Origin: Eledone cirrhosa
Lineage: Eukaryota
Direction of reading: 5' to 3'
Length of the DNA: 64,000 bases
Assembly (NCBI GenBank): GCA_964016885.1
Contig: OZ024742.1
Span: 57,598,001-57,662,000, forward strand
Each line of letters starts with the position of its first letter. Position 1 is the stretch's first letter. A program made the translations under genes and the position numbers. The notes beneath the pieces are model-generated. The model did no database searches. It saw nothing but the letters and a program-made list of their open reading frames with translations, and was not told where the DNA came from. Positions 1-64,000 of the stretch are shown here, piece by piece.

Positions 1-2160
1 GTTGGTGGTGGAGGTAGTGGTCGTGATAGTGTTGGTGGTGGTGGTGGAGGTAGTGGTGGTGGTAGTGATGGTGGTGGAGGTAGTGGTCGTGATAGTGTTG
101 GTGGTGGAGGTAGTGGTCGTGGTAGTGTTGGTGGTGGAGGTAGTGGTCGTGGTAGTGTTGGGGGTGGAGGTAGTGGTCGTGGTAGTGTTGGTGGTGGAGG
201 TAGTGGTCGTGGTAGTGTTGGTGGTGGAGGTAGTGGTCGTGATAGTGTTGGGGTGGAGGTAGTGGTCGTGATAGTGTTGGTGGTGGTGGAAGTAGTGGTG
301 GTGGTAGTGATGGTGGTGGAGGTAGTGGTCGTGGTAGTGGTGGTGGTGGAGGTAGTGGTCGTGGTAGTGGTGGTGGTGGAGGTAGTGGTCGTGGTAGTGT
401 TAGTGGTGGAGGTAGTGGTCGTGGTAGTGGTGGTGGTGGAGGTAGTGGTTTGTGGTAGTGGTGGTGGTGGAAGTAGTGGTCGTGGTAGTGTTGGTGGTGG
501 TGGTGGTAGTGGTCGTGGTAGTGGTGGTGGTGGAGGTAGTGGTCGTCGTAGTGGTGGTGGTGGATGTAGTGGTCGTGATAGTGTTGGTGGTGGAGGTAGT
601 GGTCGTCGTAGTGTTGGTGGTGGAGGTAGTGGTCGTGGTAGTGTTGGTGGTGGAGGTAGTGGTCGTGGTAGTGTTGGTGGTGGTGGTGGAGGTAGTGGTG
701 GTGGTAGTGATGGTGGTGGAGGTAGTGGTCGTGATAGTGTTGGTGGTGGAGGTAGTGGTCGTGGTAGTGTTGGTGGTGGAGGTAGTGGTCGTGGTAGTGT
801 TGGTGGTGGTGGAGGTAGTGGTCGTGGTAGTGTTGGTGGTGGAGGTAGTGGTCGTGGTAGTGTTGGTGGTGGAGGTAGTGGTGGTGGTAGTGATGTTGGT
901 GGAGGTAGTGGTCGTGATAGTGTTGGTGGTGGAGGTAGTGGTCGTGGTAGTGTTGGTGGTGGAGGTAGTGGTCGTGATAGTGTTGGGGGTGGAGGTAGTG
1001 GTCGTGGTAGTGTTGGTGGTGGAGGTAGTGGTCGTGGTAGTGTTGGTGGTGGAGGTAGTGGTCGTGGTAGTGTTGGTGGTGGAGGTAGTGGTCGTGGTAG
1101 TGTTGGTGGTGGAGGTAGTGGTCGTGATAGTGTTGGGGGTGGAGGTAGTGGTCGTGATAGTGTTGCTGGTGGTGGAAGTAGTGGTGGTGGTAGTGATGGT
1201 GGTGGAGGTAGTGGTCGTGATAGTGTTGGTCGTGGAGGTAGTGGTCCTGGTAGTGTTGGTGGTAGTGGAGGTAGTGGTCGTGGTAGTGTTGGTGGTGGAG
1301 GTAGTGGTCGTGGTAGTGTTAGTGGTGGAGGTAGTGGTCGTGGTAGTGGTGGTGGTGGAGGTAGTGGTCGTGGTAGTGGTGGTGGTGGAGGTAGTGGTCG
1401 TGGTAGTGTTAGTGGTGGAGGTAGTGGTCGTGGTAGTGGTGGTGGTGGAGGTAGTGGTTTGTGGTAGTGGTGGTGGTGGTGGTGGTGGAGGTAGTGGTCG
1501 TGGTAGTGTTGGTGGTGGTGGTGGAGGTAGTGGTGGTGGTAGTGATGGTGGTGGAGGTAGTGGTCGTGATAGTGTTGGTGGTGGAGGTAGTGGTCGTGGT
1601 AGTGTTGGTGGTGGAGGTAGTGGTCGTGGTAGTGTTGGTGGTGGTGGAGGTAGTGGTCGTGGTAGTGTTGGTGGTGGAGGTAGTGGTCGTGGTAGTGTTG
1701 GTGGTGGAGGTAGTGGTCGTCGTCTTCGTGGTAGTGTTGTTGGTGGTGGTGGTCGTGGTGGTGGTCGTCGTTTTCGTGGTAGTGTTGGTGGTGGTGGTGG
1801 TCGTCGTTTTCGTGGTAGTGTTGTTGGTGGTGGTGGTCGTCGTCGTTTTCGTGGTAGTGTTCGTGGTGGTGGTGGTCGTGGTGGTGGTCGTCGTTTTCGT
1901 GGTAGTGTTGGTGGTGGTGGTCGTCGTCGTTTTCGTGGTAGTGTACGTGGTGGTGGTGGTGGCGATGGCGGTGACAGTGTTTGTGATGGTGGTGGAGGCG
2001 GTGGTGGTGGTCGTCGTCGTCGTCGTGATTGTGGTGGCAGTGTTGGTGGTGGTCGTGGTGGTTGTCGTGGTGGCAATGTTGTTGGTGGTGGTGGAGGTGG
2101 TGGTCGTGGTGACCGTGGTGGTGGTTGCGGTGGGGCGGTGGTCGTTGTAGTGGTGGCATT
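1..2160. repeat. GGT-derived minisatellite, ~30-bp unit GGTGGTGGAGGTAGTGGTCGTGGTAGTGTT, degrading to GGT/CGT repeats after ~1720
   Basis: Unit read directly. The poly-Val, Gly/Ser and Thr/Pro ORFs over it are translations of the repeat. Confidence 0.95.
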
Positions 2161-19422: not shown

Positions 19423-19606
19423 TAGTGGAAAAGAGTGATTGTCTGGGCGCGCGTATTTCAGCTATTCAATTTATCCTAAATCTTTAACTGATCTCTAGCC
19501 TCGGTCAATGCTAGCATCTTCAATTTAGGGTGAAACTACATTCAATCTCGAAAATATACACTTTCTTTTATTCTTTCTATCTATCTATCTTCCTTTATTT
19601 ATTTCT

Positions 19607-19648
19607 ATTGTCCCCTTCTTTTGTGCCCCTGTGGCTAATAAAGAAACA
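19607..19648 (+). mobile_element. 42-bp, extremely 5'-truncated insertion of the GATA-associated Tx1 LINE, with a 29-bp target-site duplication
   Basis: TTGTCCCCTTCTTTTGTGCCCCTGTGGCTAATAAAGAAACA matches the 3' termini at 55896 and 62141 (minus strand). Identical flanks TATCTATCTATCTTCCTTTATTTATTTCT at 19578-19606 and 19649-19677. Confidence 0.92.
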
Positions 19649-20094
19649 TATCTATCTATCTTCCTTTATTTATTTCTTACTTTCTTCCATCGTTTCTTTC
19701 CTCCCTCCTTCTTTTCTTTAGTTTCTCTCGTTCTTTCCTTCCTCCTTCCTTTCTTTAGTTTCTCTGGTTCTTTCATTATAGATTACATAACCTATCACTG
19801 CCAAATACCACTTTAGTAAACATTACATATTCGTGACCAGGACTTCGTAGCCAGATTCGTCGTTCATTCCACGAAGGACGATTTAACTGATGTTTCTTGC
19901 AGGTCGAATAAGTGGATTAATGTTCTGTCGTTGGCTCATATATGTACCGGTAATGTATGTATGTATGTATGATCCCGTAACTCCTGGTAGAGTCGTGGAG
20001 CGCCATGTTGATATACGGCGTTTCATGGGCATTTTAAGCTTGGCGGAGCCCACCCCTCTCCGGGCCTGAGTACAGCAGATTTCTTCCAGAGAGA

Positions 20095-20259
20095 GAGAGA
20101 CAATCGACCCTAGCATTAGACTGGTACTTTTTTACGAGCTCGAGGGGGTGAAAGGCAAAGTTGACCTCGGTGGGATTTGAGCTCAGAGAGCAGAGAATCG
20201 GAACGAATACCATAATGTATTCTATCCGACGTTCCAACGATTCTGCCAATTCGCCGCCT
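20095..20259 (-). mobile_element. SINE family 1 copy including the 5' head
   Basis: CTGGTACTTT...TGAAAGGCAAAGTTGACCTCGGTGGGATTTGAGCTCAG...AACGATTCTGCCAATTCGCCGCC. Confidence 0.85.
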
Positions 20260-55895: not shown

Positions 55896-56346
55896 TATTT
55901 CTTTATTAGCCACAGGGGCACAAAAGAAGGGGACAAATACAAAGGGGGAATTTTACATACAATAAAAACGTGTAAAATGTTATCACAGATGGAATTTAAA
56001 AGTTAGTCGATTTTCCCCAATAGAGGGAGACAGTTTATATGGGTAACACATACCCCCGAAAAAAAATGTGCAACCCTCATCTCCAGGAGTACGAAGAGCT
56101 TGTACTCCTTTCCTCTCCTCCTCCTTTTCCTCAACCTACAGGCTGATATAGAGAGAAGGCCCATTCACTCGGGCCATTCTCGCCACTTTCACCCACCTTT
56201 CATAAAACTTGCTGGGGTACAGCACCTCTCTCTCCATCCTGATTCTTCTTCCAAAGTGGTATTTGAAAAAAAGAATCAGTTGTTGGCCAGAGAGAAAGGT
56301 GTCTGACCTCAGCCCTTTCAACCTTGTCCACCATACAACCTCTTTC
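55896..56346 (-). mobile_element. Tx1-clade LINE, 5'-truncated copy C (~450 bp: ORF2 C-terminus and 3'UTR)
   Basis: Closely similar to 62141-62590. Encodes VVWWTRLKGLRSDTF...RVNGPSLYISL*. GATA repeats on both sides. Confidence 0.95.
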
Positions 56347-56436: not shown

Positions 56437-56437
<1 letters not shown>

Positions 56438-56668
56438 ATTTCTATTTATTTGCCACGAGGGCACAAAAGAAGGGGACATTTACACAGTGGGGGAGTTTAC
56501 ATAAATCGAGTAAAGAAAAAAGGAATAACAATAATAATATAACAATAAAAAGTCCTCAAAAGGGAGGGGGCGTGTTGGGGATTGCACATACCCCCGAAAA
56601 GTGTGCAACTCTTTTCGCGGGGGAAGCCCAGAGAGGAGGCGCTCCCCCTTTCCTCTTCACTTCTTCAC

Positions 56669-59600
56669 CTACAGAACAATGTAGAGAGAAGGCCCATTTA
56701 CACGGGCCATTCTCGCTTCTTTCACCCACCTTTCATAAAACTGTCTGGGACCAAGCACTTCTCTCTCCATCCTGATTCTTCTTCCGAAGTGGTATCGGAA
56801 GAAGTAAACCAGGTGATGGCCGGAGAGAAAGTCACCCGACCTCAGACCTTTCAGGCGCGTCCACCACACAACCTCTTTCATCATGGCTATTACGCACAGA
56901 AAGACCGCCTCTGCTTCATTTCTGAAGGGAGGAGGCGGCTTGATGTTCACCACAGACTCGGCGGTTAATCGAATCGGCGCCACACGCGACAGCAGTCGTT
57001 CGACGTAGCCCCACAGATCGGCAACGCCCGCGCACGCATCTGGGACAGATCTTTTTCGCGGGATCCCTGCCCGGGCGCCCGTGTCTGTAGAGCTTTTCTC
57101 GAACGGGCAGAGCCCCCCGGTAACACTGCCAGGCTAGGGACCTCTGGAAGTTGTCCATGGGTCCCGGGCCGAAAGTTCTACCGAACAGGCTGGCCAGTTC
57201 GTCCTCCTCCATGCCTAGCGACTCTCCAAGGGTGTCGTCGCCCCTGCTAGCCACCAACCCTCTATAGAATGTCGAGGTGGATTCTCCATTGACAGTCGGG
57301 TCCGCTTGCCAGATAGCCGTGAGCGCCTGGGCACACTCGGTGTGCCAGTTGCCCAGTTTTCTCGGTCTTTGCTTCACCCAGGATTGCAGTTCGGTGAGCG
57401 AGACGAGCTGTGGGAAGGCTCGCCTCACAAACGGGGCCCACACCGGCTGACCGTTGAGGAATACCTGTAGATGCCGTAGCCTCAATGCGTGCCTACGCAT
57501 CAACAGCCACGGCATACCCAGCCCTCCTTTCGAAGGGTGCTGGCAGCAGATGGATCTCCTCACCATGGGAGGCCGCTTCTTCCAGAGGAACTGGAAGAGC
57601 ATGCGTTCCATGATGGTGAGCTTTTCCTTGGGGCAAGGCACGACGGTCAGGCGGTAGTAGATGACGGACGCTATGTAAGCGTTCGTCACCTCCGCCCGAC
57701 CTTTCAGTGATAGTTTGCACTTGGCCCACTTCTGGGTCAGCGCAAACACCCTGCTCGTCACCTCGCCCCAATTCTTCTCCACCTGGAGGTCCGGTCCGAA
57801 CCAGACCCCGAGCAGCTTCACCGGGCCCTCCGTCCACCGCCCGACGACACCGTCTAACGGCATCGGTTTGCCCCTCCACGTTCCGAGTTGCAAACCGACT
57901 GACTTGTCCTGGTTCAGCTTAGCCCCCGTCAGCCTTTCGTATTCCTCCAGTAGGGTGGCGATCGCCCCGATTTCCGAGGCGTCCGCCACCATTACTGTTA
58001 CGTCGTCGGCATAGGCCGAGACCGCTTTGTGCAATCCCGGTTCCAGGGGTATGCCCCGCAGCAACTCCAACTTCCGCAGCAGTGGCTCGAGAGTCAATAC
58101 GTACAGAAGGGAGGAGAGGGGGCACCCCTGTCTGATGGATCGGGTGATTTGAAACGGCTCCGAGAGGTAGCCGTTTACTTTAATCCTAGAGTAGATGTTG
58201 CCACTGTGCATGGCAGAAATCCAGCCCCTGAAAACGGGTCCGAAGCCCGCCGCCGCTAGCACCGCATCCAGGTAACCATGGTCGACCCTATCGAACGCCT
58301 TAGATTGATCCAAGTTGATCAGGGCCCCACCAAAGCCGGGTTCGTAGCCAACCCTCTCTATGATGTATCGCATGAGGTGGAGGTTGTCGTGAATGGACCT
58401 GGACGGGATAGCGCATGTCTGCGCGTCTCCCACCAAACCACCCACCACAAGCGCCAACCTCTTCGCCAACACCTTGGCCAAAATCTGTAACTCTGCATTC
58501 AGCAGAGTTATGGGCCTAAAGTTACTTAAGTCGTCCCCCTTGCTCTCATCCTTCCTCACTAGCGTGACCACGCCCTTGGTCACAGAACAGGGAATTCTCC
58601 CGTTCTGTTGCCAGTTGCAATAGACAGCCTCGAGGAGTTCGGAGAACAAGACCGGCATAGCTAAATAAAGTTCGTATGGTAGACCATCGAGACCCGGGGA
58701 TTTGCGTCTGCTACATTGGCTGAGCGCTTCCCCGATTTCAGTGGCTGTGATTGGCCTTTCGCAGCACTCCGCTTCGCCGCTCGAAAGACGCGGTAGACCG
58801 TCGAGGTATGGACCGAAGTCCACATCCCCGTCCGGCCCCCCGCCACCTCCGAACAGTCGAGCAAAGTGCCTTTGAAAGGCCTCGCACATTCGCTCAGGTT
58901 CAAGGATCACCCGTCCATCCTGGTCTCGTAAAGACCGAATGGTGGATTTAATCCCACTCTTGGCTTCTGTCACGCGGGCCCAGCTAACAGCTTTGGTCCC
59001 CTCGTTTCCTAAAGCACGTATTTTACTTCGGACAACGCAGCCTTCGTGCTTCGCGTCAAAGAACTGGCTCAACGCCGTTCTCGTCGCTAACACTCTGGCT
59101 ACGTCTCCGCTCCTAATCGCCTCTTCTAGTTTATCTGTTAACTCCCTTTCCTTCCTATTTCTATTCGCCGCTAGTTCCTTACTGTAACCTATCGAACTTA
59201 CTCTAATCTCTCTCTTTAGAGATACCCACCACCTACTGTTGACGATCGCTCCCGTCAACCGCATCTTAACTAAGCTACTAATCCGGTTTCTGTAATCTTT
59301 CTTTGTCGGTAAGGACAAGTTCATCTTCCAGTAACCGGGACCCTGTCTATGCGTTCTATCAAGGTTGACCACGCAGGTCACTAATTTGTGATCTGAATAG
59401 CCAACCATGATCAGTTCTGGACAACTAAATACGTCCCTATCCTTACTCCTAACCAAAAACCTATCTAGGTACGATCTAGATTTCCACTGCGGTTTGCCCA
59501 GGTCCAGGTTGGCGCAGTTGGACAATCTAGTCGAAATCTATCGACCAGGTCGAATCGATCGAGTAACCCCTTGAGGCTGCTACACCCCCCTCTATCGGGA

Positions 59601-60064
59601 CATGCCCCTGCATAGTCCCAACGCGCATCTAGGATTCCATTCCAGTCCCCCACTAAAAGCAGGGAACGCGACGTTCCTAGAAAAGTCTCCAGACGCTGGA
59701 AGAAGTCGGCTCTTTCCGCCCCGAAGGGAGCATAAAGACCGACCAGCCTGAAAGCCCTGCCTTCACCGCCCCCGACGTCCAGCACCAGTAATCGACCCCC
59801 CGGGTCCGAGTGAACAATCTGTACGTCGAGAGTCAGACGTTTATCCAGCAGTACGGCAACTCCCCCCCCCCCCCCGCCTCCGGGTTGACAGAGAGATGCG
59901 TGCATCTCAAAGTCATCGAAGGCGGGCGCCAGCTGTCTCACGCTGCTGATCCGACTCTCGCAAACAACCATCACAGCTATACTTTGTGACCTGAGGTCAC
60001 TTAGAAGCTTTGCTTGCTTCCAAGCTGAGCCCAGGCCACGCGCGTTCAAACAGCCAACTCTCAA
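56669..60064 (-). pseudogene. LINE ORF2 (APE endonuclease, reverse transcriptase, zinc finger), disrupted
   Basis: Endonuclease motifs LNARGL, GDWN, WTW, LDRFLV, SDHKLV. RT motifs KSPGLDG, FRPITLLN, LDQSKAFDRVDH, IRQGCPLS, YADD. 1-nt frameshift at ~59481 and a 38-nt deletion at ~57030 relative to copy B. Confidence 0.93.
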
Positions 60065-60217
60065 TTGATCTATTTTGGTGTTGAAAGTGAAGAAAGAAAA
60101 GCACTTACCTCTCCGGGTTGCGTAATTTCCATGGCATCAGGTGTGTTGGGTGGAGCGATGTTTTGTGGTGGTGTGGGGGTACACGTGTGTGGTGGGGTTG
60201 GGGTATTTGGAGTTGTG

Positions 60218-61909
60218 TCAGGGAGAGGGGCGGTTATGGGGAAATCTTTCAAGAGGACGCGATTCAACGGTTTTAAACAGGGGGGGGGGGGGGCTCACGT
60301 CCCGTCTAAATTGTTCTTTTAAGGAACGATAAAGGTCCAGAGGGACCTTTATCATTTTTAGATGGGTGAAGTTCTCTGTTGAGATAAAGTTTGGCCCTTC
60401 GGTCTGCACCATAGGGTTATTGTTTATTAATTTAACCAGTTTTTTGTTTTCTTTATTTATATATGTGTATTGCAACGTCTTTTTTTGTGATGCTGTCAAT
60501 GTTTCGGAGAGGGGAGGCGCAGATTTATTTTTGTTTGTTGAGGGTGGGGTGTTTTTGATTGGAGTTGGTGTTTGTGTGTGGGTTATTTGTGGTGTGCTGG
60601 GTGTGTGTTTTCTTTTTTTTCTTTTAACTTGTCTGAAGGCTTCTCCTCCTTCTTCTTCAGAAGTTGGGGGAAACTCTTCAGCGCTAGGTGGGAGGGACGT
60701 GTTGTGTGGTTGTTTTTTTTTTGCGGGAGGGGTAGATTTGTTACTGTTTTTTTTATTATTTGTTTGGAATGGGTTTTGTGGTGGTGGTGGTAATGTTTGT
60801 GTCGTGCTTGTGGTTGGTGATGGTGGTGGTGATGTTTGTGTTGTGGTTGGTGGTGGTGATTTTTGTGTCGTGCTTGTGTTTGGTGCTGGTGGTGGTGATG
60901 TTTGTGTTGTGTTTGTGGTTGGTGGTGTCTGTATTTTGTTTGCTGTGTGTGGTATTAGTGTATTTTTGGAGGTGGGTGGTGTTGGTGTACTGTTTGTGGT
61001 GGGTGTGGGCAATAGTCCTTTTTGGGGGATACGTTTCGGGCAGTTAGCCTTAACGTGTCCCCTTTCCATGCATAAATAGCATGCTGGTCTTCTCCCCTCT
61101 ACAATTATGTCTATTGGGGTAAGGTCATCCAGCCAGATGCGATCCGGGATTTGTGCTATTCTTTCGGGCCTCATTTGGACTAGTATGTCGAGGCCCATTC
61201 CCAGGAACGCATCTCCAGTTGCCTTCCCCATTGACAGCATTGTGTCTTCGCCCATATCAATGAAGCCAGCAATAGCCCACCAGAAGTCCATTGTGGGCAG
61301 CATTGTTTTTACTTTTACTCTCTGTGTTCTTCTACCCATGTAGGAGGGATAGAAGCTATATGTTGTCGATGAGAGTGGGCTTAGGGAAAGCTTCTCCGCC
61401 GTTTCTTTGTCTCTTGTTAGGACCGAAATGCTGCCATAGAGTCGGTCCTTTCGTATGAAGAGAATATTCTTCATATAGTCTTTTAGGACTAACTCTATTT
61501 CCATTTGGCTGGGCTGTGCTGGCTTTCTTGTCTGGTTTAGTATAGTTCTGTAGAGAACTGTGTTTTCTGCTCTGGCTTTCTTGAATTCTGGAGGGGAGTT
61601 AATGGAAAACATTCCGTTCTCCCCCAAAACAATGTGTTTCTTTGCTTCGGCCAGTTTTTCTCTGGCGGCAGTTAGGTCAATTGGTGTGTATGTAATGGAT
61701 TGTTTTGTTTTCTGGGCGAAAGTTGCCCTGTTGTTATTTGTATTATTTTCTGTTTGTTTGTTTTCTGTTTGCTCATTTTCCTTAACATTTGTTTTTTCAT
61801 TTTCTTTGTTTGTTTCATTGTCTAATTTTGTTGTAATTATTTTTTGTTCTTCAGACTTGGGGGGCGTGGCAGAGCTAATGGCAGACATATCTGCCATCTT
61901 TTCCGCCAT
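60218..61909 (-). CDS. LINE ORF1 nucleic-acid-binding protein (563 aa as read; probably extends to 60070)
   Basis: First ATG at 61909 (MAEKMADMS). Knuckle CYLCMERGHVKANC (Cx2Cx4Hx4C), Pro/Thr-rich tail, basic KRKKRK. Lies directly upstream of ORF2. Confidence 0.88.
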   Translation of the reverse strand: MAEKMADMSAISSATPPKSEEQKIITTKLDNETNKENEKTNVKENEQTENKQTENNTNNNRATFAQKTKQSITYTPIDLTAAREKLAEAKKHIVLGENGMFSINSPPEFKKARAENTVLYRTILNQTRKPAQPSQMEIELVLKDYMKNILFIRKDRLYGSISVLTRDKETAEKLSLSPLSSTTYSFYPSYMGRRTQRVKVKTMLPTMDFWWAIAGFIDMGEDTMLSMGKATGDAFLGMGLDILVQMRPERIAQIPDRIWLDDLTPIDIIVEGRRPACYLCMERGHVKANCPKRIPQKGLLPTPTTNSTPTPPTSKNTLIPHTANKIQTPPTTNTTQTSPPPAPNTSTTQKSPPPTTTQTSPPPSPTTSTTQTLPPPPQNPFQTNNKKNSNKSTPPAKKKQPHNTSLPPSAEEFPPTSEEEGGEAFRQVKRKKRKHTPSTPQITHTQTPTPIKNTPPSTNKNKSAPPLSETLTASQKKTLQYTYINKENKKLVKLINNNPMVQTEGPNFISTENFTHLKMIKVPLDLYRSLKEQFRRDVSPPPPLFKTVESRPLERFPHNRPSP

Positions 61910-62112
61910 GCTGCCAAGAAAGAAATTTTTCGGCAAAAATAGATATTTATTTTACCCCCTAAAAAGGGGGTAAATGCAAAAATGTTTCCCTAAATAACAG
62001 GGGTTAGTGTTCCAAATGTGTTGCACTAAAAAATTTATCCGGTACTTACAATAGTAAGGGTAAATCCCGATGGAATAGCGGAGCCGATGCGAAGCGTGTC
62101 TTACTCTATCAA

Positions 62113-62140: not shown

Positions 62141-64000
62141 TGTTTCTTTATTAGCTACAGGGGCACAAAAGAAGGGGACAAATACAAAGGAGGAAGTTTA
62201 CATACAATAAAAACGTGTAAAATATTATCTCAAATGCAATTTAAAAATTAGTCGATTTTCCCCAATAGGGGGAGACAGTTCATATGGGTAACACATACCC
62301 CGAAATAAAATGTGCAACCCTCATCTCCAGGAGTACGAAGAGTTTGTACTCCCTTCCTCTCCTCCCCTCTTTCCTCAACCTACAGGCTGATATAGAGAGA
62401 AGGCCCATTCACTCGGGCCATTCTCGCCACTTTCACCCACCTTTCATAAAACTTGCTGGGGTACAGCACCTCTCTCTCCATCCTGATTCTTCTTCCAAAG
62501 TGGTATTTGAAAAAAAGAATCAGTTGTGGGCCGGAGACAAAGGTGTCTGATCTCAGCCCTTTTAACCTCGTCCACCATACAACCTCTTTCGCCATAGCTA
62601 TCACACAAAGGAAAACCGCCTCTCCTTCGTTTTTGAAGGAGGATGGCGGTTTGATCATGACAACGGACTCGGTGGTCAACCGGATTGGTCCCACCCACGA
62701 CAATAGTCGTTCTACATAGCCCCACAGGTCGGTGACGCCCGTGAAGTGTATGAATGCGTGCGCGACGGTTTCTTCGTCTCGCACGCACCTCGGACAGATC
62801 TTTTTTGCAGGGTCCCTGCCCGGGCGCCCATCTCTGTAGAGCTTGTCTCGAACTGGTAGAGCTCCTCGGTAGCACTGCCAGGCCAGGAACTTTTGGAAGT
62901 TGTCCATCGGCCCCGGGCGGAAGGTCCTACCAAACAGACTGGCCAGTTCGTCTTCCTCTACGCCTAGAGTTTCACCGAGCGCGTCGTCGCACTTGCTGCG
63001 GATCAACCCTCTATAGAATGACGAAGTGGAGTCTCCACTGTTCGCCGGGTCCGCCTGCCAGAGGGCTGTGAGCGCCTGAGCACATTCGATGTGCCAGTCG
63101 CCCATTTTCCTCGGTCTTTGCTTGACCCAAGACTGCAGCTCGGTCAGCGAGACGAGTCGTGGAAAGGCTCGCCTCACGGTGAGGAATACGTAAAGATGCC
63201 GCAGCCTGAACGCGTGTTTGCGCATCGTCAGCCACGGCATCCCCAGCCCTCCGTTGGAAGGGTGTTGGAAGCAGATGGATCTTCTCACCAAAGGAGCCCG
63301 CCTCTTCCAAAGGAATTGGAAGAGCGCGCGCTCCATTTTGGTGAGAGTTTTGGCTGGACAAGGCACGACGGTCAAGCGGTAGTAGATGGCGGACGCTATA
63401 AAAGTGTTCGCCACCTCCGCTCGACCTTTCAAGGATAGTTTGCACTCGGCCCACTTCTGGGTGAGTGCAAACACCTTGGCCGTCACTTCGTTCAAGTTCT
63501 TCTCCACCTGGAGGTCCGGAACAAACCAGACCCCGAGCAGCTTTACCGGTCCTTCCGTCCAGCGTCCGACGACGCCATCGGAAGGCATCGGTTTTCCTCT
63601 CCACGATCCGAGTTGAAAACCGATGGGCTTGTCCCGGTTCAGCTTCGCTCCTGTGAACCTTTCGTATTCCTTCAGTAAGGTGCCGACTTCCTCGATTTGC
63701 GAGGCGCTCGACACCATTACTGTCACGTCGTCGGCGTAGGCCGACGCCGCTTTTCGCAGTCCCGGTTCCAGAGGGATGCCCTGCAATAGCTCCAACTTCC
63801 ACAGTAGTGGCTCGAGAGTCAGTACGTACAGAAGGGAGGAGAGAGGGCATCCCTGTCGAATGGATCGCGTGATATGGAACGGCTCCGAGAGGTAACCGTT
63901 CACCTTGACCCTTGATCAGATGTTGCTGTTGTGCATTGCAGCAATCCAGCCCCTGAACACGGGTCCGAAGCCTGTCGCCTCGAGCACCGCATCCAGGTAA
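62141..64000 (-). mobile_element. Tx1-clade LINE copy B (different subfamily from A), continues beyond the window
   Basis: 3'UTR with AATAAA at 62147-62152. ORF2 RT and C-terminal region homologous to copy A but with many substitutions and a different 3'UTR. Confidence 0.95.
62380..64000 (-). pseudogene. LINE ORF2 C-terminal half (RT through zinc finger), disrupted
   Basis: IRQGCPLS, YADD, CPRC..ETVAHAFIHF. In-frame TGA at 63916-63918 where copy A has Tyr, a 24-nt in-frame deletion (LT-VRRAF versus LNGQPVWAPFVRRAF), and Phe at the last finger Cys position. Confidence 0.9.

What the first reader, a model, noticed from the sequence alone, without database searches (positions are those of the whole stretch)
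19578..19677. 42-bp LINE stub with a perfect 29-bp TSD shows the TATC target pre-existed and there is no poly(A) tail
Seen: TATCTATCTATCTTCCTTTATTTATTTCT occurs at 19578-19606 and again at 19649-19677, enclosing the last ~41 nt of the B/C subfamily. It is 36 kb from the cluster and on the opposite strand. The duplication starts at the TATC repeat and runs into unique sequence, so the empty site held only ~3 TATC units. Inference: first-strand nick at the start of a short TATC run, second nick ~29 nt away, no A-tail added. This is an independent insertion supporting target specificity, with a long TSD.
Basis: partly seen in the sequence, partly recalled or inferred. Interest (0 to 1): 0.75.

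Follow-up and report, generated by a model that had tools for sequence, protein, structure and literature searches.

The report
Ordinary stub of TATC-targeting LINE
This is a real 42-base leftover of an abundant jumping gene (over 5,000 copies in this genome) that sits almost always at TATC repeats and almost never carries an A-tail; its 29-base flanking duplication is about twice the family's usual 14 bases, so it is one likely ordinary insertion of a repeat-seeking element rather than a new mechanism.

Summary
The family is an L1-group, two-ORF, APE-endonuclease LINE with 5,185 exact 3' ends genome-wide. Of 101 position-ordered copies, 88 are followed by at least 7 nt of TATC repeat; only 3 ends genome-wide carry an A-tract. 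The target pre-exists: at a site inside another repeat, three independent insertions share one nucleotide, and 12 of 14 empty paralogues hold the word once. The stub's own empty allele could not be found. The 29 bp is not a family trait: 15 other strictly anchored duplications are 8-25 bp (median 14, as for L1), and a single C^TATC or C^AATC can serve. Stubs are common (6 of 75 truncated copies are 60 nt or shorter; 11 others share this 5' junction). Microsatellite-targeting Tx1 LINEs are published (Kibi, Koshi, crocodilian families); I found no paper on a TATC target, but this scan has already noted the family at least eight times on other DNA of this genome.

The parts
19578..19606 (+). upstream copy of the 29-bp target-site duplication (3 TATC units, then 17 nt of pyrimidine-rich unique sequence); preceded by C
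   Evidence: strict TSD test (0 mismatches)
19607..19607 (+). one extra A at the 5' junction; untemplated, or from an element variant with one T fewer seen in L038 and L041 (not resolved)
19608..19648 (+). last 41 nt of the LINE 3' UTR, ending at the family's fixed end AAACA, no A-tail
19637..19642 (+). AATAAA, 6 nt before the element's end (poly(A)-signal-like; motif name from established knowledge, use not tested)
   Evidence: sequence
19649..19677 (+). downstream copy of the 29-bp duplication
55896..56346 (-). about 450-nt 5'-truncated copy of the same family, between TATC/GATA runs
56437..62112 (-). about 5.7-kb sister-family LINE (ORF1 frame 60218-61951, endonuclease frame 59465-60136, RT frame 56916-59537; ORF2 split over two frames), also ending in TATC
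62141..64000 (-). longer copy of the same family as the stub, running out of the window; RT and zf-RVT matches

Best explanation
The stub is the last 41 bases of an abundant L1-group (likely Tx1-clade) LINE, likely inserted by target-primed reverse transcription that stopped very early. Inferred steps: the element's APE endonuclease nicked the bottom strand at 5'-GATA^G-3' (top strand C^TATC), at the first TATC of a short run; reverse transcription began at the element's fixed last base, so no A-tail was copied; it ended after 41 nt; a second nick 29 nt along the top strand, at a position that varies between insertions (usually 8-25 nt), gave the duplication. Shown: the anatomy, the family-wide TATC association, the fixed tail-less 3' end, the TSD length range, and one target whose empty paralogues hold the word once. 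Not shown: enzyme cleavage, the RNA's real 3' end, this site's empty allele.
For: Anatomy and null test. Intact family member: 5.84 kb, ORF1 638 aa, ORF2 1145 aa; Pfam RVT_1, Exo_endo_phos, zf-RVT; closest solved structure human LINE-1 ORF2p, E 6.5e-52, against 2e-22 for R2. 5,185 exact ends, reversed-pattern control 0. 88 of 101 position-ordered copies have at least 7 nt of TATC repeat right after the end; 59 of 75 truncated ones have at least 8 nt of TATC within 30 nt before the 5' junction. A non-T base after the end in 81 copies; an A5 tract in 3. C before the TSD in 26 of 31 sites, and in 15 of the 20 where the four preceding bases are not TATC (counted by hand). Three insertions of different lengths at one nucleotide of another repeat, with 12 of 14 empty paralogues holding the 7-mer once. 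No anchored TSD shows clearly more TATC units downstream than upstream.
Against: Only 20 of 189 testable copies passed the strict TSD test; most of the rest lie in repeat on both sides, and some (for example L211, L219, L247, L280) show no duplication at all. Most anchored cases came from searches for short downstream runs, which works against finding added TATC units and fixes part of the TATC consensus. 29 bp is the longest strict case and above the 7-18 bp reported for L1-clade elements (PMC6007223 passage). The extra A is unexplained. Tx1-clade membership was not shown: the tree had no labelled Tx1 reference.
Confidence: 0.85

Rival explanations
1. Same insertion, but the RNA runs through into the downstream TATC repeat and pairs with the nicked strand (as for R2Ol and R1Bm). 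This would hide the poly(A) tail and could mean that 4-8 nt of the downstream TATC came from RNA, making the true TSD 21 or 25 bp. It refines the best explanation rather than replacing it.
For: AATAAA lies only 6 nt from the end, so ordinary cleavage 10-30 nt downstream (recalled figure) would fall in the TATC run. 10 of 19 full-length copies share a TC-repeat head before the first element base, which suggests flank carried in the RNA. Annealing of read-through target sequence is reported for R2Ol (PMC6795142 passages) and for I, R1Bm and R2Ol (PMC6007223 passage).
Against: Junctions are exact at AATC and TATA targets that pair poorly with UAUC (L125, L135, L136, L147, L104). No added units at the two paralogue-controlled insertions whose both ends were seen or clearly in the 15 other strict TSDs. 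No RNA run was offered.
Confidence: 0.35
2. TATC is mainly the element's own tail (like the repeat tails of CR1, L2 or RTE) and insertion is untargeted; the upstream TATC is coincidence or later expansion.
For: Nearly every copy is followed by TATC; every run of two or more TATC/GATA units in the window lies at or close to a LINE end.
Against: TATC stands in the upstream TSD copy here and before 59 of 75 truncated 5' junctions; copies at non-TATC targets get no TATC tail; repeated use of one nucleotide in another repeat, with the word present in empty paralogues.
Confidence: 0.04
3. The structure arose after insertion or without TPRT: a local tandem duplication or break repair enlarged a normal 12-17-bp TSD to 29 bp, or captured a LINE fragment at a break.
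For: Much longer duplications flank a few copies (L127 about 200-415 nt, L041 about 140 nt, L068 38-89 nt) and tandem arrays of stubs exist (L038), so later duplication does happen in this family. The last 9 nt of the TSD resemble the element's own sequence just upstream of the stub (7 of 9, by eye).
Against: One stub only, not two; the duplication starts exactly at the family's consensus C^TATC and directly after the family's fixed end; 29 bp continues a series 21, 23, 25.
Confidence: 0.1

Closest known systems
Kibi (TC)n and Koshi (TTC)n of teleosts; crocodilian Tx1 families in (TTCC)n/(TTTC)n (PMC4494074 passages and section 15; PMC3812793 passages; the original Kojima and Fujiwara 2004 paper was not held)
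   Same: APE-type L1-group LINEs inserted into one pyrimidine-rich microsatellite; targeting attributed to the endonuclease; tandem copies that sandwich a TSD are described for the related SINEU-3.
   Different: Repeat unit here is TATC, not named in the passages read; host is probably an octopus (inference from genome size and repeat make-up, and from earlier notes; no call names it); I could not see whether those families lack poly(A) or what TSD lengths they make.
Mammalian and zebrafish L1-clade LINEs (PMC6007223 passage; PMC12633430 passages)
   Same: ORF2 architecture and best structural-sequence match; TSD mostly 7-18 bp, mode 13-15, against median 14 here; frequent 5' truncation.
   Different: L1 nicks TT/AAAA and copies a poly(A) tail; this family uses C^TATC and shows an A-tract in only 3 of over 5,000 ends.
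R2Ol and R1Bm, target-specific LINEs that use read-through target sequence for priming (PMC6795142 passages; PMC1919474 passages)
   Same: Exact 3' junction at a defined target; possible pairing of RNA with target.
   Different: Other clades (R2 has a restriction-like endonuclease); rDNA targets; read-through is not shown here.
L1-Tx1 families of Octopus vulgaris (PMC13282606 passages)
   Same: 13 recently active L1-Tx1 families with 421 insertions are listed for an octopus genome.
   Different: The main text has no occurrence of 'target' or 'TSD'; supplements not read; identity with this family not tested.

Membership tests
APE-type non-LTR retrotransposon, L1 group | two ORFs; ORF2 with N-terminal APE endonuclease, RT and C-terminal zinc-binding region | tested here: met
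   best PDB match human LINE-1 ORF2p over residues 4-856
APE-type non-LTR retrotransposon, L1 group | TPRT marks: fixed 3' end, variable 5' truncation, TSD | tested here: met
   TSD resolved in only 20 of 189 testable copies
Tx1 clade | RT phylogeny groups with Tx1L, Kibi, Koshi or Keno | tested here: inconclusive
   tree of 38 RT regions holds no labelled Tx1 reference; nearest relatives (about 41% identity) are unnamed
Microsatellite-targeting Tx1 (Kibi/Koshi type) | more than 20% of flanks carry one repeat type (criterion of PMC4494074) | tested here: met
   88 of 101 downstream, 59 of 75 upstream
Microsatellite-targeting Tx1 (Kibi/Koshi type) | target present in the empty site | tested here: met
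   met for another insertion site through paralogues, 12 of 14 empty copies; not testable for the stub's own site
Microsatellite-targeting Tx1 (Kibi/Koshi type) | endonuclease cleaves the target specifically in vitro | not testable with these tools
   needs purified protein
Mammalian-type L1 | poly(A) tail at the 3' junction and TT/AAAA target | tested here: not met
   3 A-tract ends genome-wide against 5,185 ends; target C^TATC

The most novel reading that the evidence does not exclude
A whole radiation of cephalopod Tx1-type LINEs targets C^TATC, an unreported repeat, with an RNA that carries target repeat at both ends (read-through past a poly(A) signal placed 6 nt from the end, and a TC/TATC head), so that pairing replaces the poly(A) tail; and its second nick is loose enough to give a heavy tail of duplications from 29 to several hundred bases. 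Thousands of young copies would then be a natural dataset for second-strand cleavage in TPRT.
Probability: 0.25. Interest if true: 0.55.

Novelty: new member of a known kind. Interest (0 to 1): 0.27.

Why it matters
The stub itself matters little: it is one of likely a few hundred such stubs. Its use is as a resolvable site in a family whose copies mostly hide their TSD inside repeats. The family adds TATC to the list of microsatellite targets of L1-group LINEs, gives a short cleavage consensus that can be tested in vitro, and shows L1-like TSD lengths without a poly(A) tail, which bears on how priming and second-strand cleavage are set in TPRT.

Tried and rejected
Empty allele of the stub: no paralogue of the unique flanks among the 40 scored candidates. 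Three contig sets of one sample, possibly the source, show no joint over the stub, and the tool skipped 19560-19608 as repeat; record lengths suggest the left contig runs about 70 nt on into the stub, so no empty allele there (inference). Three RAD-seq runs have zero depth on the unique flanks. A loose TSD search (100 of 189 'hits') was rejected because repeat matched repeat. From the 20 strict hits I dropped four before counting: L180 (6-nt artefact), L141 (repeat only), L207 (flank is a second copy of the element), L170 (duplicate of L169). The 5' TSD of L307 was not found. A special hotspot at this 5' junction: only 16 matches genome-wide, 12 of them stubs, mostly explained by TCTA(T) joining TTGTCC. 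RT tree for Tx1 membership was uninformative; the protein atlas gave no result. Papers on Tx1L and the original Kibi/Koshi description were not held, and the supplement of PMC4494074, which lists targets, could not be read; Repbase entries were not searchable, so a TATC target may be recorded there. Searches that found no paper on a TATC/GATA target.

Full report
Observation. The 29-mer at 19578-19606 recurs exactly at 19649-19677 and cannot be extended. The 42 nt between are one A and the last 41 nt of the LINE family whose minus-strand ends lie at 55896 and 62141 (98% over 54 nt, one mismatch each); the long sister element ending at 56437 matches at 87%. A 30-kb 52-bp satellite separates stub and cluster. 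Shuffled flank pairs gave 2 strict matches in 562, of 10 and 14 nt, so the duplication is not chance.

The family. The window's frames carry RVT_1, Exo_endo_phos and zf-RVT. An intact copy elsewhere (L076) is 5.84 kb with ORF1 638 aa and ORF2 1145 aa. Its best solved-structure match is human LINE-1 ORF2p, E 6.5e-52. Database relatives at about 41% identity are unnamed and the RT tree had no labelled Tx1 reference, so L1 group is shown and Tx1 clade is inferred. A 35-nt piece of the 3' end has 5,185 exact matches in the 3.0-Gb genome, control 0. The host is probably an octopus; that is inference, no call names it.

Target and tail. I fetched the first 100 listed places on contig C1; rescanning these loci gave 101 ends, chosen by position and not by flank. 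After AATAAAG the next nine bases are AAATATATC in 47, AAACATATC in 33 and AAATCTATC in 6. 88 of 101 are followed by at least 7 nt of TATC repeat; 59 of the 75 truncated copies with a visible 5' junction have at least 8 nt of TATC in the 30 nt before it. Genome-wide, 81 ends are followed by a base other than T and 3 by an A tract of five or more: one clean run of about 22 A and two broken runs. The patterns differ slightly in 5' length, so these ratios are approximate. 'No poly(A)' therefore holds for the family; the three exceptions may be true tails or slippage.

Does the target pre-exist? The stub's own empty site was not found. A proxy was: copies L285 and L292 lie at the same nucleotide of another dispersed repeat. 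A search with that flank (40 of 1,762 candidates scored, 20 loci fetched; 16 of the 20 matched my anchor motif) gave L285 itself, a third insertion of different length (L307) and 14 empty copies, 12 of which hold TATCTGT once. L285 and L292 duplicate these 7 nt; the 5' side of L307 was not resolved. So the word is target, one TATC can serve, and nothing was added at those two junctions.

TSD length. To reach resolvable sites I added 30 loci from each of six searches for short downstream runs (genome-wide counts 81, 42, 161, 263, 475, 306). Of 265 distinct sites 189 were testable (53 ran off the locus, 19 were full-length, 4 had a different 5' part). 20 passed the strict test; after dropping four (see Tried and rejected), the 15 besides the window are 8, 11, 11, 11, 11, 13, 14, 14, 15, 16, 17, 20, 21, 23 and 25 bp, median 14, counting 0-3 nt of 5' microhomology. 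A wider hand-picked set of 30 spans 6-25, median 14. The window's 29 is the longest. Published L1-clade values are 7-18 bp, mode 13-15 (PMC6007223 passage) and 8-18, median 15, for new Alu insertions (PMC12633430 passages); reptile Utopia makes 20 bp (PMC4640811 passage). Against a hard ceiling: three copies are flanked by much longer duplications (L068 38-89 nt, L041 about 140 nt, L127 about 200-415 nt), which may be long TSDs or later tandem duplications. Against completeness: 169 of 189 sites gave no strict TSD, mostly because both flanks are repeat, some because there is no duplication. TSDs start with TATC, AATC or TATA, and a C precedes them in 26 of 31, in 15 of 20 when sites inside a run are set aside; the searches fixed part of the TATC, not the C.

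Is the stub unusual? 6 of 75 truncated copies are 60 nt or shorter, which would scale to a few hundred genome-wide (extrapolation). 16 places share the A-TTGTCC junction; by eye 12, the window included, are stubs.

Mechanism. Best reading: endonuclease nick at GATA^G on the bottom strand, reverse transcription from the element's fixed last base, early termination, second nick at a variable distance, here 29 nt. All enzymatic steps are inferred. Why no tail is copied is open: the AATAAA 6 nt from the end, and a shared TC-repeat head on 10 of 19 full-length copies, fit an RNA with target repeat at its ends, as reported for R2Ol (PMC6795142 passages); exact junctions at AATC and TATA targets and no clear added units fit a start point set by the protein. 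If RNA supplied one or two units here, the true TSD would be 25 or 21 bp.

Known work. Tx1-clade LINEs that target microsatellites are published: Kibi (TC)n, Koshi (TTC)n, crocodilian families in (TTCC)n/(TTTC)n (PMC4494074 passages and section 15; PMC3812793 passages). PMC3747384 passages place Tx1 in the L1 clade with target-specific insertion. PMC13282606 lists 13 active L1-Tx1 families in Octopus vulgaris without target analysis in the main text (passages). Four searches found no paper on a TATC or GATA target; subscription papers, Repbase and the supplement of PMC4494074 were not visible and may hold one. This scan's own notes already describe the TATC-targeting family on eight other pieces of this genome (619 notes fit that look-up, eight were shown); I had reached the same reading before looking, and they are not independent support.

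Verdict. Real, correctly described, and mostly correctly read, but ordinary for its family; the long TSD is an upper-tail value. Novelty: new member of a known kind, at family level. Interest 0.27.

Noticed in passing
window 21739-52292: 30.5-kb tandem array of a 52-bp unit, about 87% matches, between the stub and the LINE cluster.
   Followed up: no
L285, L292, L307 (G000 C1:249.79 Mb, C1:336.75 Mb, C28:64.00 Mb): Three independent insertions at one nucleotide (AAC^TATCTGT) of another dispersed repeat that looks like a different LINE; many empty paralogues.
   Followed up: yes
L056, L076, L077, L089, L100, L103, L106, L114, L120, L121 5' ends: 10 of 19 full-length copies share a TC-repeat head just before the first element base, likely flank carried in the RNA; in L120 it lies between the TSD and the element.
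   Followed up: partly
L038 (G000 C26:12.947-12.949 Mb); also C26:11.40 Mb and C17:27.41 Mb: Tandem arrays of about 76-80-nt units made of a LINE 3' stub plus TATC run: a minisatellite born from a stub.
   Followed up: partly
L127, L041, L068: Duplications of about 200-415, 140 and 38-89 nt around single copies; long TSDs or later tandem duplications.
   Followed up: partly
L303, L304, L305: The only three ends with an A tract; L303 has about 22 A before the TATC run, L305 keeps a TSD.
   Followed up: partly
L086, L151, L210: Tiny re-insertions or repeats of the last 8-20 nt of the element with their own TATC, suggesting abortive starts of reverse transcription.
   Followed up: no
flanks of many loci, e.g. 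L006, L013, L022, L044, L064, L093: At least five sister families with different 3' UTRs, all with AATAAA near the end and all followed by TATC, nested head to tail.
   Followed up: no
L154, L162: Copies facing each other tail to tail across a TATC/GATA switch.
   Followed up: no
window 19953-20100: A high-copy dispersed repeat next to the stub's right flank (very high depth), possibly a SINE.
   Followed up: no
window 1-2156: G/T-rich 30-bp tandem array, about 63 copies, strong GC skew.
   Followed up: no
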